This document shows positions 44,899-48,735 of a stretch of DNA of 64,000 nucleotides, piece by piece. The notes below the pieces were generated by a model that was given only the letters and a program-made list of their open reading frames with translations, was not told the origin of the DNA and made no database searches. This stretch comes from a phage. Location of the stretch: NCBI GenBank assembly GCA_036253495.1, contig GCA_036253495.1_4125.1, one strand, 5' to 3'. A program made the position numbers and the translations under genes. How positions within the stretch are numbered: position 1 is the first letter of the stretch; every line of letters starts with the position of its first letter.

Positions 44899-45150
44899 AT
44901 GAGTGAACATAATGCAGTACTAAAAAAGATTTTAAATGATTTGGGTAGTGAATTTGAAGTTTCAGACGAAGAATATGAATTTTGGAAAAAGGATTTTGAA
45001 CAACTGTCCGAGAGTGATAAAGTGTTCAATATGATTGGTGTTGTCAGTCAGTACTTACTCGGTGGTGGTCGTGCTAGTGCTTCAATCCTTGCATCGGCAA
45101 TCATCTGTACTGCCCGATGGTGTCAAGAAAAAAGTATTGACGCTTTCTAA
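44899..45150 (+). CDS. hypothetical protein
   Basis: Start moved to ATG 44899. Confidence 0.4.
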   Translation: MSEHNAVLKKILNDLGSEFEVSDEEYEFWKKDFEQLSESDKVFNMIGVVSQYLLGGGRASASILASAIICTARWCQEKSIDAF

Positions 45151-45208
45151 ATTAGGAGATATAATGTTTGTATCAGAGAGAAAGAATGTATAAGGAATTA
45201 TATTTTGC

Positions 45209-45237
45209 TTGACAATGGAGCAATAATATTATACAAT
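45209..45237 (+). promoter_or_regulatory. sigma70-type promoter (TTGACA-17-TACAAT)
   Basis: Consensus -35, 17-nt spacer, in 290-bp intergenic region before the methyltransferase gene. Confidence 0.5.
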
Positions 45238-45387
45238 TAATCAATCTTATACAACGAGGAAACTCCAATTGAAATATGTAATGCTCCTTATTCCAGTGGG
45301 GTCATTCCGTGAAATTCTACCTACTGATGTACTGGATGGTCTTAAAAAGAGAAATCCACATAAGTTTTAAATAGTATTAAAAAGGAC

Positions 45388-45424
45388 AATACTGGGCGAA
45401 TATTCGTCCAGTATTTTATTTTAT
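45388..45424 (+). terminator. intrinsic terminator
   Basis: AATACTGGGCGAATATTCGTCCAGTATT palindrome followed by TTATTTTA. Confidence 0.6.
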
Positions 45425-45436
45425 AAAGGATTATAG

Positions 45437-47335
45437 ATGGAACCGATACGTGTACTATCACTATTCAATGGGATGAGTGTTGGGTATATGGCCTTGCAAA
45501 GTGCAGGAATACCAGTTGAAAAGTACTACTCATCTGAAATTGATAAATTTGCTATAGCTGAATCCCAGGCTAACTTTCCTGATATCATCCAATTGGGTGA
45601 TGTAACTAGATGGAAAGAATGGGATATCGAATGGGACAAGATAGATCTTCTGATGGGTGGTTTTCCTTGCTTCCCAGCAGGAACCATGATCATGACAAAT
45701 GAAGGTCATAAAGATATAAAAGATATAAAAATTGGTGATATGGTTCTTACACACACTGGACAATACCAAAAAGTATTGAGTATTGGTAGCAAGATTGCAC
45801 CAACAAGAATCATCACAGGTCAGGGACATATACCAATTGAATGCACTGATAATCATCCATTTTATGCGAGAAAAATGAGCAAGAAGTGGGATAATGAAAA
45901 ACGACAATATGTTCGTGAATATACAGAACCTACATGGATCGATGCACATGAACTCACAGAAGAACATGCTATATGTAATGTTCGTTGTAATGTGAATTTT
46001 CAACATAACAAGAGTGAAAGCTTTTGGTATTTCATGGGTAGATTTATGGGTGATGGATGGACTTACAAAGTAAAACGACAAAATAGAAAAAATAGTTATC
46101 AATATCGTGTTTTTATTTGCTGTGCTCATGATGAATTTGATGAATTGGTTTCATGTTTTGATGGTATGAATATGAAATATAATTTTGTTAAAGAAAGAAC
46201 ATCTTATAAATTCTATATTTGTTCAAAAGAACTAGTTGAATTTTGTGAACAAATGGGTAAGGGTGCTTCAAATAAACAAGTACACCCCACACTTTTCACT
46301 GAAAGTATCGCTAATCAGAAAGCATTCATTGATGGTTATTTTGACGCAGATGGTCACCATGACAAGAAAGATGATTGTTTAAAATTTACATCAACATCAA
46401 AGAATGTTATTCTTGGTATACAACAACTAATTATGAATGTGTATGGTCGTCATTCTAACATAACATACTTTAAACCGTCTGAAACAAAAGTTATAGAAGA
46501 ACGTGTTGTTAATCAGAAGCCGTATTACGTATTAACATACAAAAAAGAAAAGCACCGAAAAGATGAAGCATTCTATGATGATGGGTCATATTCATGGGTA
46601 AAAGGTGTTAAATCGAACACCACAACCGGAGAATGGAAAACCGTTTACAATATTGAAGTTGCAGTAGATAACACATATACGGCGAACAATATTGTAGTTC
46701 ATAACTGCCAAGCGTGGTCAGTTGCTGGGAAACAAGGCGGTGTGAATGATCCTCGTGGTATGTTATTCCATACAATGGTTGATATTTACCAGCACATAAA
46801 AAGTCTCAATCCTAACTTGAAAGTTCTTTTTGAGAATGTTAAGATGAAGGAAGATTTCAAGGATTATATCAATGGCGTGTTGGAAATGACACCAATTTTG
46901 ATAAACTCCCAGCATTACACGCCTCACTTCAGGCAACGTTACTACTGGTACAGTACTGATAAGTTATTCATACCACCTGCAATATCCAAAGCCCCAAAGC
47001 TTCAAGATATACTTGATGATGGTTGGTACACAGACAGAACCGCTTCGTACTGTATTGATGCCAATTACTTCAAGGGTGGAGATCCGAATCAGTACTTCAA
47101 TAAGTCAAGAAGACAAATCGTTTTCAAAGACCCTGATATCAACAGGAACTTCCTGATTGAGAAGGGTAAACGAAATGTGGACTATCGACATTTGACAGTG
47201 CAAGAGTGTTGCATTTTACAGGGAGTTGATGTAAACTATTTCAAAGTGTCAAGTAACACACAAGCGTACAAAATGCTTGGTAATGGCTGGACAGCACCTG
47301 TTATAGAACATTTACTTCGTGATATATTCTTTTAA
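45437..47335 (+). CDS. DNA (cytosine-5)-methyltransferase precursor interrupted by an intein
   Basis: 632-aa ORF; exteins carry motif I LFNGMSVG, IV GGFP|CQAWSVAG (split), VI LFENV, VIII RQRYYW, X GNGWTAPV; mature enzyme about 286 aa. Confidence 0.8.
   Translation: MEPIRVLSLFNGMSVGYMALQSAGIPVEKYYSSEIDKFAIAESQANFPDIIQLGDVTRWKEWDIEWDKIDLLMGGFPCFPAGTMIMTNEGHKDIKDIKIGDMVLTHTGQYQKVLSIGSKIAPTRIITGQGHIPIECTDNHPFYARKMSKKWDNEKRQYVREYTEPTWIDAHELTEEHAICNVRCNVNFQHNKSESFWYFMGRFMGDGWTYKVKRQNRKNSYQYRVFICCAHDEFDELVSCFDGMNMKYNFVKERTSYKFYICSKELVEFCEQMGKGASNKQVHPTLFTESIANQKAFIDGYFDADGHHDKKDDCLKFTSTSKNVILGIQQLIMNVYGRHSNITYFKPSETKVIEERVVNQKPYYVLTYKKEKHRKDEAFYDDGSYSWVKGVKSNTTTGEWKTVYNIEVAVDNTYTANNIVVHNCQAWSVAGKQGGVNDPRGMLFHTMVDIYQHIKSLNPNLKVLFENVKMKEDFKDYINGVLEMTPILINSQHYTPHFRQRYYWYSTDKLFIPPAISKAPKLQDILDDGWYTDRTASYCIDANYFKGGDPNQYFNKSRRQIVFKDPDINRNFLIEKGKRNVDYRHLTVQECCILQGVDVNYFKVSSNTQAYKMLGNGWTAPVIEHLLRDIFF
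45668..46705 (+). mobile_element. intein with LAGLIDADG homing-endonuclease domain
   Basis: 346 codons in frame; starts Cys (CFPAGT), block B TDNH, LAGLIDADG-like FMGRFMGDGW and FIDGYFDADGH, ends VVHN before extein Cys; removal restores GGFP-CQAWSVAG. Confidence 0.75.
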
Positions 47336-47350
47336 CCATTAGAGGCACAA

Positions 47351-48735
<1,385 letters not shown>

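What the first reader, a model, noticed from the sequence alone, without database searches (positions are those of the whole stretch)
45668..46705. LAGLIDADG intein inserted exactly at the catalytic Pro-Cys of a cytosine-5 DNA methyltransferase
ORF 45437..47335 has C5-MTase motifs I, VI (ENV), VIII (QRYY) and X (GNGWTAPV), but motif IV reads GGFP then a 346-codon in-frame insert then CQAWSVAG. The insert starts with Cys (CFPAGT), has a TxxH block (TDNH), two LAGLIDADG-like motifs (FMGRFMGDGW, FIDGYFDADGH) and ends HN before the extein Cys. Deleting 45668..46705 restores a canonical PCQ active site, so the enzyme can only be active after protein splicing. Phage inteins are better known in RNR, polymerase, helicase and terminase genes; one in a DNA MTase active site is unusual to my knowledge.
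Basis: partly seen in the sequence, partly recalled or inferred. Interest (0 to 1): 0.75.

Follow-up and report, generated by a model that had tools for sequence, protein, structure and literature searches.

The report
Mobile intein splitting a phage cytosine methyltransferase
A jumbo coliphage DNA cytosine-methyltransferase gene is interrupted, exactly in front of its catalytic cysteine, by a self-splicing, self-spreading protein element (an intein with a homing endonuclease); it is real and looks active, but it is an ordinary kind of element that sits at this same site in many other phages.

Summary
ORF 45437..47335 (632 aa) is a C5 DNA methyltransferase. Codons 78-423 (45668..46705) are a 346-aa class-1 intein with a double-motif LAGLIDADG homing endonuclease, inserted between Pro and Cys of motif IV.

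- **Domain and fold evidence:** Pfam Hint_2, LAGLIDADG_3 and split DNA_methylase all hit. The AlphaFold model has pLDDT 93.5 and matches the TliVMA, PI-SceI and PI-PfuI inteins.
- **Empty-site orthologues:** 121Q, Turkey5 and RaK2 have a gap that equals the predicted boundaries exactly.
- **Evidence of mobility:** only 5 of about 50 related jumbo-phage records carry the intein. TH47 and JNE01 inteins are far more alike than their host genes. JNE01 differs from intein-free Turkey5 almost only in the 115 nt just 3' of the intein, a co-conversion tract. The endonuclease domain has dN/dS of about 0.08.

The rarity claim is overstated. Related inteins occupy this same Pro|Cys site in at least 34 metagenomic C5 methyltransferases, and in P1-like dmt, Erwinia Y3, Lactobacillus Nyseid, Pseudomonas Lana and Mannheimia phages. 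Phage A4 carries a nucleotide-identical copy, not annotated as an intein. Inteins in phage N6/N4 methylases are published; I found no paper on the C5 site. It is a new member of a known kind, of modest interest.

The parts
45437..47335 (+). Precursor ORF: 632 codons plus stop, 73.7 kDa. C5 DNA methyltransferase interrupted by an intein.
   Evidence: Collinear with A4_120 of Escherichia phage A4.
45437..45667 (+). N-extein, aa 1-77. Holds motif I LFNGMSVG (45461-45484), SEID (45533-45544), and the first half of motif IV, GGFP (45656-45667).
   Evidence: Pfam DNA_methylase stretch aa 4-79. 91-100% identical to the N-termini of intein-free 121Q and Turkey5 genes. Motif coordinates.
45668..46705 (+). 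Intein: 346 aa, 40.5 kDa, class 1 (Cys1 ... His-Asn | Cys+1).
   Evidence: Pfam Hint_2, Intein_splicing and LAGLIDADG_3. The gap in intein-free orthologues equals these coordinates. AF2 pLDDT 93.5. Foldseek to TliVMA, PI-SceI and PI-PfuI inteins, E 3e-18 to 1e-13.
45668..45982 (+). Hint N-lobe, about intein aa 1-105. Block A is CFPAGTMIMT (45668-45697). Block B is ECTDNHPF with T60/H63 (45839-45862).
   Evidence: C1, T60 and H63 are nearly invariant in 37 relatives. phmmer match to the gp41-1 intein N-lobe. All-beta secondary structure in the model.
45983..46591 (+). LAGLIDADG homing-endonuclease domain, about intein aa 106-308. Motif 1 is FMGRFMGDGW (46031-46060, D129). The block D Lys is K203 in ASNKQVHP (46265-46288). 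Motif 2 is FIDGYFDADGH (46325-46357, D228).
   Evidence: Pfam LAGLIDADG_3. D129, K203 and D228 are conserved in relatives. The alpha-beta-beta-alpha-beta-beta-alpha pattern occurs twice in the model. Foldseek to I-DmoI, E 5e-9, TM(target) 0.6-0.7. dN/dS 0.07-0.10.
46592..46705 (+). Hint C-lobe. Block F is VYNIEVAVDNTYTANN (46643-46690). Block G is IVVHN (46691-46705).
   Evidence: N346 is invariant; V326, Y327 and N328 are conserved. Weak TIGR01443 intein_Cterm match, below cut-off.
46706..47335 (+). C-extein, aa 424-632, plus stop. Cys+1 (46706-46708) is the motif IV catalytic Cys. Also holds CQAWSVAG, FENV (46829-46840), RQRYYW (46931-46948) and GNGWTAPV (47279-47302).
   Evidence: The joined exteins (286 aa) match DNMT3B/3A and M.HhaI catalytic domains.
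46706..46820 (+). Flanking-extein haplotype that travels with the intein (co-conversion tract).
   Evidence: JNE01 (intein+) versus Turkey5 (intein-free): 27 of 36 extein mismatches fall in these 115 nt, binomial P 7e-17. All intein+ alleles share ...NDPRGMLFHTMVDIY...; all intein-free alleles share ...NDIRGQLFLVMV.IF....

Best explanation
The gene encodes a 73.7-kDa precursor. A 346-aa class-1 intein is embedded in the catalytic loop of a small (286 aa) DNMT3-like C5 DNA methyltransferase, between Pro77 and the catalytic Cys of motif IV.

Shown: the anatomy, the fold, the residues, empty-site orthologues and homing footprints.

Inferred mechanism of splicing:
1. After translation, Cys1 of the intein attacks the Pro77-Cys1 peptide bond (N-S acyl shift, assisted by block B Thr60/His63).
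2. The thioester is transferred to the +1 Cys. This residue is also the methyltransferase's own nucleophile.
3. Asn346 cyclises, assisted by His345, and releases the intein.
4. An S-N shift creates the native GGFP-CQAWS active site, giving a 33-kDa enzyme.

Before splicing the enzyme is expected to be inactive.

Inferred mechanism of spread: the released 40.5-kDa intein is a monomeric double-LAGLIDADG endonuclease. During mixed infection it is expected to cut the uninterrupted GGxTTyCCA^TGyCAAGC... site in intein-free alleles of related phages. Repair from the intein-containing copy then copies the intein, plus roughly 100 nt of adjacent extein, into the recipient (homing).

The host enzyme is most likely an orphan methylase that protects phage DNA from restriction. 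Its sequence specificity is unknown.
For: - **Families:** DNA_methylase split into 3 stretches around Hint_2, LAGLIDADG_3 and Intein_splicing.
- **Fold:** AF2 pLDDT 93.5, pTM 0.90. The best PDB matches are HEN-containing inteins: TliVMA at 3e-18, PI-SceI, PI-PfuI and PI-TkoII. I-DmoI matches the middle domain.
- **Exact boundaries:** intein-free Turkey5 and 121Q (286 aa) and RaK2 (297 aa) read GGFP|CQAWSVAG or GGSP|CTDVSFAG, with a gap equal to aa 78-423.
- **Catalytic residues:** C1, T60, H63, D129, K203, D228, H345, N346 and C+1 are all present and conserved in 37 relatives.
- **Sporadic distribution:** 5 intein+ records against about 45 intein-free among Asteriusvirus and relatives.
- **Horizontal transfer:** TH47 versus JNE01 gives intein dS 0.25 against extein dS 1.0-1.3, with 93-100% nt identity across the intein and 72-88% in the exteins.
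- **Co-conversion tract:**, P 7e-17. Most differences in it are synonymous (27 nt changes, 6 aa changes).
- **Purifying selection:** dN/dS 0.07-0.17 across the three intein domains in window versus TH47 and JNE01, and 0.04-0.09 in the unsaturated pair TH47 versus JNE01.
- **Not an intron:** no intron-like RNA family in the region.
- **Restored enzyme:** the joined exteins align end to end with DNMT3B catalytic domains (E 5e-22) and with M.HhaI and M.HaeIII.
Against: - Nothing was expressed. Splicing, endonuclease activity, the cleavage site and methyltransferase activity are all inferred.
- Block F has Asn (N328) and Asn (N336, VDNTY) where many class-1 inteins have Asp and His. N328 is family-typical, so this is probably not decay, but splicing kinetics cannot be predicted.
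- The -1 residue is Pro. From memory of intein engineering work, Pro at -1 disfavours N-terminal cleavage in several model inteins. This was not checked in the library.
- Synonymous sites are near saturation in the window versus TH47 comparison, so that dN/dS value is approximate.
- No intein-free allele closely matching the window/A4 backbone exists in the collections. The direct before/after comparison therefore comes from sister variants (JNE01 and Turkey5, TH47 and 121Q), not from the window itself.
Confidence: 0.88

Rival explanations
1. The insert is a decaying or dead intein. It no longer splices or no longer homes, so the methyltransferase gene is effectively inactivated in this phage and is being carried as a pseudogene.
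For: Methylases of this kind are dispensable, and relatives show decay stages. P0003 and Erwinia phage Y3 have lost the LAGLIDADG acidic residues. P0039 and P0040 are mini-inteins. The Mannheimia phage gene is frameshifted just after the intein. Block F of the window intein is non-canonical (N328, N336).
Against: The 632-codon frame is open in a 35% G+C genome. All nucleophiles and both nuclease Asp residues are intact. dN/dS is about 0.08 in both intein and exteins. The intein is 100% identical in nt to that of A4 while the background differs by about 0.5-1%. Co-conversion and transfer footprints point to recent activity in sister variants.
Confidence: 0.07
2. The insert is a domesticated, non-excising domain. 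On this view the protein works as a 74-kDa fusion, for example a methyltransferase with a built-in DNA-binding or nuclease module, like the in-frame LAGLIDADG domain without Hint lobes reported in actinophage methylase Taj_79 (PMC9957025).
For: In-frame endonuclease domains without splicing function do occur in phage methylases.
Against: Both Hint lobes are present with the full set of splicing residues. The insert splits the Pro-Cys catalytic dipeptide, which is incompatible with catalysis in the unspliced form. Most orthologues work without it. The predicted fold is that of splicing inteins.
Confidence: 0.02
3. The insert is an RNA-level element: a group I or II intron carrying a homing-endonuclease ORF that happens to be in frame.
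For: Phage genes often carry group I introns with homing-endonuclease genes, and sporadic distribution and co-conversion look the same for introns.
Against: No Rfam intron family matches at E <= 1 in 45000-47800. The ends of the insert encode the two halves of a Hint domain that close into one fold. The boundaries are codon-exact at Cys1 and Asn|Cys.
Confidence: 0.01
4. Add-on reading, not exclusive of the best explanation: splicing is conditional, for example on redox state through Cys1/Cys+1, on temperature, or on DNA. The intein would then act as a post-translational switch that times methyltransferase activity during infection.
For: The intein sits on the catalytic Cys, so splicing is an obligatory activation step. 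Two reactive cysteines flank the junctions. Conditional splicing is documented for other inteins (from memory, not tested here).
Against: No evidence here. About 90% of related phages lack the intein and presumably regulate the same enzyme without it. The pattern of spread is that of a selfish element.
Confidence: 0.1

Closest known systems
Escherichia phage A4 gp A4_120 (ON286972, USL83787), annotated only as 'DNA-cytosine-methyltransferase'
   Same: Same gene and same site. The intein is 100% identical in amino acids, and there are no nucleotide differences from 45310 to 46905.
   Different: The C-extein differs in a patch: aa 491-540 are 72% identical, with about 60 mismatches in 46906-47065. 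The record does not annotate an intein.
Class-1 LAGLIDADG inteins with solved structures: TliVMA (7qsu/7qss), PI-SceI (1vde, 1ef0), PI-PfuI (1dq3), PI-TkoII (2cw7)
   Same: Hint splicing domain with an inserted double-LAGLIDADG endonuclease, Cys1, TxxH, and C-terminal HN plus a +1 nucleophile. Foldseek E 3e-18 to 2e-9, TM(query) 0.55-0.69.
   Different: Only 10-18% sequence identity. Different host proteins (V-ATPase, RNR, DNA polymerase). No extra DNA-recognition region like that of PI-SceI is evident, since the window intein is shorter (346 versus 454 aa). Block F has Asn in place of Asp and His.
Inteins of actinophage and mycobacteriophage DNA methylases (DNMT-1/2 of Kelley et al. 2016, PMC5050341; Dorothy_75 family of Gosselin et al. 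2023, PMC9957025)
   Same: [quoted passage not shown] They are detectable relatives, about 26% identical over the full length.
   Different: The host enzyme there is an N6/N4 amino-methyltransferase (N6_N4_Mtase) and the site is different. Here the host is a C5 enzyme and the +1 residue is the catalytic Cys itself.
Undescribed inteins at the same motif IV Pro|Cys site of other C5 methyltransferases
   Same: Identical insertion point (...P|CF..GT ... (H/Y/F)N|C(Q/T)..S) and the same domain layout, at 24-54% identity. Examples: P1-like dmt (RCS47, Ro157c2YLVW, P1 isolate OP279344), Erwinia phage Y3 and relatives, Lactobacillus phage Nyseid, Pseudomonas phage Lana, Mannheimia phage 587AP2, Paenibacillus cisolokensis, and at least 30 metagenomic proteins.
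   Different: Very different methyltransferase subfamilies and hosts. Several have a decayed endonuclease (Y3, P0003), none at all (P0039, P0040), or a frameshifted host gene (Mannheimia).
Bacterial intein-like (BIL) domains and Hedgehog Hint modules
   Same: Hint fold; weak Pfam Hint and PT-HINT signals.
   Different: BIL and Hog domains lack the endonuclease and do not ligate their flanks, and BIL domains typically lack a +1 nucleophile. The window element has HN|C and a full homing endonuclease, and it sits in a conserved catalytic motif.

Membership tests
Intein (class 1) | N-terminal nucleophile (Cys/Ser/Thr) as first residue, block A | tested here: met
   Cys1 in CFPAGTMIMT at 45668. C1 is nearly invariant in 37 relatives.
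Intein (class 1) | Block B TxxH | tested here: met
   T60-D-N-H63 at 45845-45856. T60 and H63 are conserved in relatives.
Intein (class 1) | C-terminal (His)-Asn followed by a +1 Cys/Ser/Thr | tested here: met
   IVVHN|C at 46691-46708. N346 is invariant. All 36 relatives that include the C-terminal junction read N|C.
Intein (class 1) | Block F with conserved Asp (F:4) and His (F:13) | tested here: inconclusive
   The window has VYN...VDNTY, with Asn at both positions. N328 is typical of this whole intein family. The canonical residues are recalled from memory, and the consequences for splicing are unknown.
Intein (class 1) | Hint fold formed by the N- and C-terminal parts of the insert | tested here: met
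   AF2 pLDDT 93.5 and pTM 0.90. Foldseek to TliVMA, PI-SceI and PI-PfuI inteins, prob 1.00. Pfam Hint_2 is above its gathering score.
Intein (class 1) | In-frame insertion in a conserved site of a host protein, absent from orthologues, whose removal restores the motif | tested here: met
   Turkey5, 121Q and RaK2 lack exactly aa 78-423, and the joined flanks give GGFPCQAWS.
Intein (class 1) | Autocatalytic protein splicing | not testable with these tools
   Needs expression and mass spectrometry of the ligated junction.
LAGLIDADG homing endonuclease (monomeric, double motif) | Two LAGLIDADG motifs, each ending in a catalytic acidic residue | tested here: met
   FMGRFMGDG (D129) and IDGYFDADG (D228). 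Both are conserved in relatives. Pfam LAGLIDADG_3 at 33.8 bits against a cut-off of 22.5.
LAGLIDADG homing endonuclease (monomeric, double motif) | Pseudo-dimeric alpha-beta-beta-alpha-beta-beta-alpha fold | tested here: met
   Secondary-structure order in the model: H117-129, E130-136, E144-152, H154-166, E, E, H187..., then H214-228, E, E, H245-259, E, E. I-DmoI matches at E 5e-9.
LAGLIDADG homing endonuclease (monomeric, double motif) | Homing: site-specific cleavage of the empty allele and copying of the element with flanking markers | tested here: met
   Footprints only. These are the co-conversion tract, an intein much less diverged than its host gene, and sporadic distribution. Cleavage itself is not testable here.
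C5 cytosine DNA methyltransferase (PF00145) | Conserved motifs I (FxGxG-like), IV (PCQ), VI (ENV), VIII (QxRxR-like) and X (GN..) | tested here: met
   LFNGMSVG, GGFP|CQ, FENV, RQRYYW and GNGWTAPV. Pfam E 3.6e-29. The joined exteins hit DNMT3B at 5e-22 and M.HhaI at 1.6e-17. TIGR00675 scores 95.9 bits on the precursor, just below its 100.65 cut-off.
C5 cytosine DNA methyltransferase (PF00145) | m5C formation at a defined sequence | not testable with these tools
   Needs methylome sequencing of phage DNA or an in vitro assay.
Group I / II intron with homing-endonuclease ORF | Conserved intron RNA core | tested here: not met
   Rfam scan of 45000-47800 at E <= 1 gave only a chance sRNA hit at 25 bits.
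Bacterial intein-like (BIL) domain | Hint domain without an endonuclease, usually without a +1 nucleophile, in variable non-conserved proteins | tested here: not met
   The endonuclease is present, the +1 Cys is present, and the host site is a universally conserved catalytic motif.

The most novel reading that the evidence does not exclude
The inteins that occupy the motif IV Pro|Cys site of C5 methyltransferases may be a distinct, so far undescribed intein allele family. Their chemistry would be adapted to an invariant -1 proline and to using the host enzyme's own catalytic cysteine as the +1 nucleophile. In the phage, splicing may be conditional (redox or DNA dependent), so that it gates when the methyltransferase becomes active during infection.
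Probability: 0.1. Interest if true: 0.55.

Novelty: new member of a known kind. Interest (0 to 1): 0.3.

Why it matters
The practical value is modest.

- **Annotation:** the finding corrects the annotation of a set of phage genes. A4_120, the JNE01 'hypothetical protein', UE-S1, ph0011, P1-like dmt, Erwinia Y3 and Nyseid all lack an intein call.
- **Insertion-site catalogue:** it adds the catalytic Pro-Cys of C5 DNA methyltransferases to the list of intein insertion sites.
- **Experimental system:** it offers a convenient E. coli system for studying homing, co-conversion and intein decay. Culturable intein+ phages (A4, TH47, JNE01, UE-S1) and intein-free phages (121Q, PBECO4, phAPEC6, Turkey5) of one genus are available.
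- **Protein engineering:** the invariant -1 Pro may interest protein engineers, because several model inteins tolerate Pro at that position poorly (from memory).

It does not open a new kind of biology.

Tried and rejected
- **Origin of the window:** an exact-sequence look-up of the 632-aa protein in the assembly collection found nothing on record. The origin stays 'close relative of phage A4'.
- **Intron rival:** an Rfam scan found nothing.
- **Literature:** Hits for 'intein' plus C5, Dcm or cytosine methyltransferase were nearly all papers that use intein purification tags. The phage papers that contained both words (PMC6266608, PMC11437467, PMC3610870, PMC4465626, PMC7824862) do not link them. 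Novikova et al. 2016 (PMC4760082) does not mention methylases in its main text, and its supplements are not held.
- **-1 proline:** a search for published data on -1 Pro effects returned nothing usable. That point rests on memory.
- **Upstream insert:** I folded the 233-nt insert as an RNA. The z-score was only -1.95, which is not convincing as a structured RNA.
- **Not run:** I considered predicting the full precursor structure and running a second large protein search with the joined exteins. Neither could test activity, and the distribution question was already answered by tblastn.
Full report
**Observation.** The + strand ORF 45437..47335 is open for 632 codons. Its product begins like a C5 DNA methyltransferase, with motif I LFNGMSVG and then SEID. 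It reaches ...LLMGGFP at codon 77. It then runs through 346 codons that begin with Cys (CFPAGTMIMT, 45668) and end IVVHN (to 46705). It resumes with CQAWSVAG..FENV..RQRYYW..GNGWTAPV (coordinates).

Pfam finds DNA_methylase (E 3.6e-29) in three stretches separated by the insert. Inside the insert it finds Hint_2 (36.8 bits, cut-off 28.4), LAGLIDADG_3 (33.8 bits, cut-off 22.5) and sub-threshold Intein_splicing, Hom_end_hint and Hom_end. NCBIfam gives only sub-threshold matches to intein-bearing archaeal proteins and to the intein C-terminal model. phmmer against PDB sequences finds the gp41-1 intein for the N-lobe, and PI-PkoII, the V-ATPase intein and I-DmoI for the middle.

**Source and orthologues.** The window is a close relative of Escherichia phage A4, a 355-kb jumbo myovirus of the genus Asteriusvirus. 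It is collinear with A4 and about 99% identical from about 36.5 kb onward. A4_120 is the same gene and is annotated only as a DNA-cytosine-methyltransferase.

tblastn of the precursor against 50,697 phage records shows two groups:
- A4, TH47, JNE01, UE-S1 and ph0011 carry a gene of about 1.9 kb.
- About 45 related records carry an 850-890-nt gene. These include 121Q, PBECO4, phAPEC6, Turkey3/5, GAP32, CBB, Erwinia and Xanthomonas relatives, and RaK2-like Klebsiella phages.

In the protein alignment the short genes read GGFP|CQAWSVAG (121Q, Turkey5) or GGSP|CTDVSFAG (RaK2). Their gap is exactly residues 78-423 of the window protein, and the nucleotide junctions agree. Removing 45668..46705 therefore restores a normal motif IV. 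The 286-aa product aligns end to end with the catalytic domains of DNMT3B/3A (E 5e-22) and with M.HhaI and M.HaeIII.

**Is it an intein?** A search with the 346 residues alone returned 42 proteins. Almost all are 550-600-aa C5 methyltransferases from metagenomes and run assemblies, plus one from Paenibacillus. In 33 of the 34 relatives that include the upstream junction the insert lies between Pro and Cys of motif IV; one has Asp in place of Pro. All 36 relatives that include the downstream junction read N|C. The following are conserved: Cys1, Thr60, His63, Asp129, Lys203, Asp228 and Asn346. The penultimate residue is His, Tyr or Phe.

An AlphaFold model built on that alignment is confident (pLDDT 93.5, pTM 0.90). 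It has two beta-rich terminal lobes around a twice-repeated alpha-beta-beta-alpha-beta-beta-alpha core. Its best PDB matches are the TliVMA intein (E 3e-18), PI-SceI, PI-PfuI and PI-TkoII, with I-DmoI matching the middle domain. No intron RNA family is detectable.

The element meets all sequence and fold criteria of a class-1 intein carrying a monomeric double-LAGLIDADG homing endonuclease. One oddity is block F, where Asn replaces the Asp and His common in other inteins. This is typical of the whole family.

**Is it mobile and functional?** Four lines of comparative evidence say yes, at least recently and in this phage genus.
1. Distribution is sporadic, at about 10% of records.
2. The inteins of TH47 and JNE01 are 93-100% identical in nucleotides across the element, while their exteins are 72-88% identical. 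Intein dS is 0.25 against extein dS of 1.0-1.35. The intein therefore moved between diverged methyltransferase alleles.
3. JNE01's exteins are 98-100% identical to those of intein-free Turkey5, except in the 115 nt immediately 3' of the intein. That stretch holds 27 of the 36 differences (binomial P 7e-17). Most of those differences are synonymous, and there JNE01 resembles TH47. This is the co-conversion tract expected from homing. TH47 versus 121Q shows the same on both sides. All intein+ alleles, the window included, share this flank haplotype (...NDPRGMLFHTMVDIY...), and all intein-free alleles share another.
4. dN/dS is 0.07-0.17 across the three intein domains against TH47 and JNE01, about 0.07-0.08 for the whole intein, similar to the exteins (synonymous sites are near saturation for window versus TH47, so that value is approximate).

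The window's own intein is nucleotide-identical to A4's, with no difference between 45310 and 46905.

**Mechanism (inferred).** The standard four-step class-1 splicing pathway uses Cys1, the +1 Cys and Asn346. The +1 nucleophile is also the catalytic thiol of the methyltransferase, so the precursor should be inactive and the 33.2-kDa ligated product active. The 40.5-kDa free intein (masses) should cut the uninterrupted motif IV coding sequence of co-infecting intein-free relatives and be copied in by repair. None of this was or can be tested with these tools.

Related full-length inteins occur in 86 phage records. I verified the same Pro|Cys site in these phages:
- Lactobacillus phage Nyseid.
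- Mannheimia phage 587AP2, whose gene is frameshifted after the intein.
- Erwinia phage Y3, whose nuclease motifs are decayed.
- Pseudomonas phage Lana.
- The C5 domain of Dmt in P1-like phages RCS47, Ro157c2YLVW and a laboratory P1 isolate. The reference P1 and P7 lack it.

Relatives also sit in NrdD, ThyA and mycobacteriophage N6/N4 methylases. Inteins in phage DNA methylases of the N6/N4 class are published (PMC5050341; PMC9957025). Most hits were papers using intein purification tags. The library covers open-access papers and bioRxiv preprints only, so absence there is not proof of absence. I therefore file this as a new member of a known kind. It is a well-supported and probably active intein at a site common in sequence data but apparently undescribed in the searched literature.

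**Rivals.**
- A dead intein or pseudogene (0.07) is argued against by the intact frame, intact residues and purifying selection.
- A domesticated non-excising domain (0.02) is argued against by the full splicing apparatus and the split catalytic dipeptide.
- An in-frame intron (0.01) is argued against by the Rfam result and the Hint lobes at both ends.
- Conditional splicing as a regulatory switch (0.1) is an untested add-on.

**Side observations.** These are listed separately and cover:
- a 233-nt insert with a promoter, a mini-ORF and a terminator just upstream of the gene, unique to the window and A4;
- a recombination patch in the C-extein relative to A4;
- a mosaic relation between the window and UE-S1 inteins, with identical ends and a diverged core;
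- the DNMT3-like character of the extein;
- the full range of decay stages among relatives.

Noticed in passing
window 45190-45436: A roughly 233-nt intergenic insert lies directly upstream of the methyltransferase ATG. It is present only in the window and phage A4 among 50,697 phage records; 121Q, UE-S1, JNE01 and Turkey5 have a 52-nt spacer instead. It holds a sigma70-like promoter (TTGACA-17-TACAAT, 45209-45237), a GAGGA plus a 33-codon TTG ORF (45269-45370), and a 12-bp terminator-like hairpin with a T-run (45388-45415) ending 21 nt before the ATG. It could be a tiny moron, small gene or sRNA, and it places a terminator between the promoters and the methyltransferase. The RNA fold z-score is only -1.95.
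   Followed up: partly
window 46906-47065 and 47188-47257: Against phage A4 the window has no mismatch from 45310 to 46905. It then has about 60 mismatches in 160 nt and about 15 in 70 nt inside the C-extein, between motif VIII and the C-terminal motifs (the likely target-recognition region). In the patch the window resembles 121Q and UE-S1 (92% aa), while A4 differs (72%). This is a recombination patch that may change specificity.
   Followed up: partly
window 45557-45736 and 46637-46820, versus L002 (UE-S1): The window and UE-S1 inteins are mosaic. The ends of the intein and the adjacent exteins are mostly 95-100% identical in nucleotides (one junction bin 88%), but the central roughly 850 nt (part of the Hint N-lobe plus the endonuclease) is only 45-67% identical, 39% in amino acids. 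This suggests replacement of the intein core by recombination between two intein lineages at the same site.
   Followed up: partly
window 45437-45667 + 46706-47335 (joined exteins): The 286-aa spliced methyltransferase is closer in sequence to the mammalian DNMT3B/3A catalytic domains (full-length alignment, E 5e-22) than to M.HhaI or M.HaeIII (E 1e-17, N-terminal half only). Its motifs resemble those of DNMT3: LSLFxG..GY, RxRYxW and LG..W..PVI.
   Followed up: no
L016:2270-5311 (P1 isolate OP279344 dmt); also RCS47 and Ro157c2YLVW: The bifunctional Dmt methyltransferase of some P1-like phages carries a related LAGLIDADG intein (27% identical) at the same motif IV site (LVGGTP|CFTAGH...AVVHN|CQAFSIAG), giving a 1013-aa protein. 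Reference P1 (NC_005856, 2265-nt gene), P7, SJ46 and others lack it. The records do not annotate it.
   Followed up: partly
P0003 (L012:4053-5708), P0039, P0040, L015:1213-3342 (Erwinia Y3), L014 (Mannheimia 587AP2): Relatives show all stages of the intein life cycle at this site. P0003 is from the same methyltransferase lineage but has a truncated endonuclease lacking both acidic residues. Erwinia Y3 has degenerate LAGLIDADG motifs. P0039 and P0040 are mini-inteins without an endonuclease. The Mannheimia phage gene is frameshifted right after HN|CQS and annotated as three CDSs.
   Followed up: partly
window 45665-45670 (Pro77|Cys78 junction): The residue before the intein is Pro in 33 of the 34 relatives that include the N-terminal junction; one has Asp. 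From memory, Pro at -1 is poorly tolerated by several engineered inteins, so this family may be adapted to it. I did not verify this in the literature (searches were unhelpful).
   Followed up: no
L006:1001-2890 (JNE01), L001:3438-5336 (A4), L002, L007: Public annotations of the intein-containing genes call them 'hypothetical protein' (JNE01) or plain cytosine methyltransferase (A4, UE-S1, ph0011). None mentions the intein or the homing endonuclease.
   Followed up: yes
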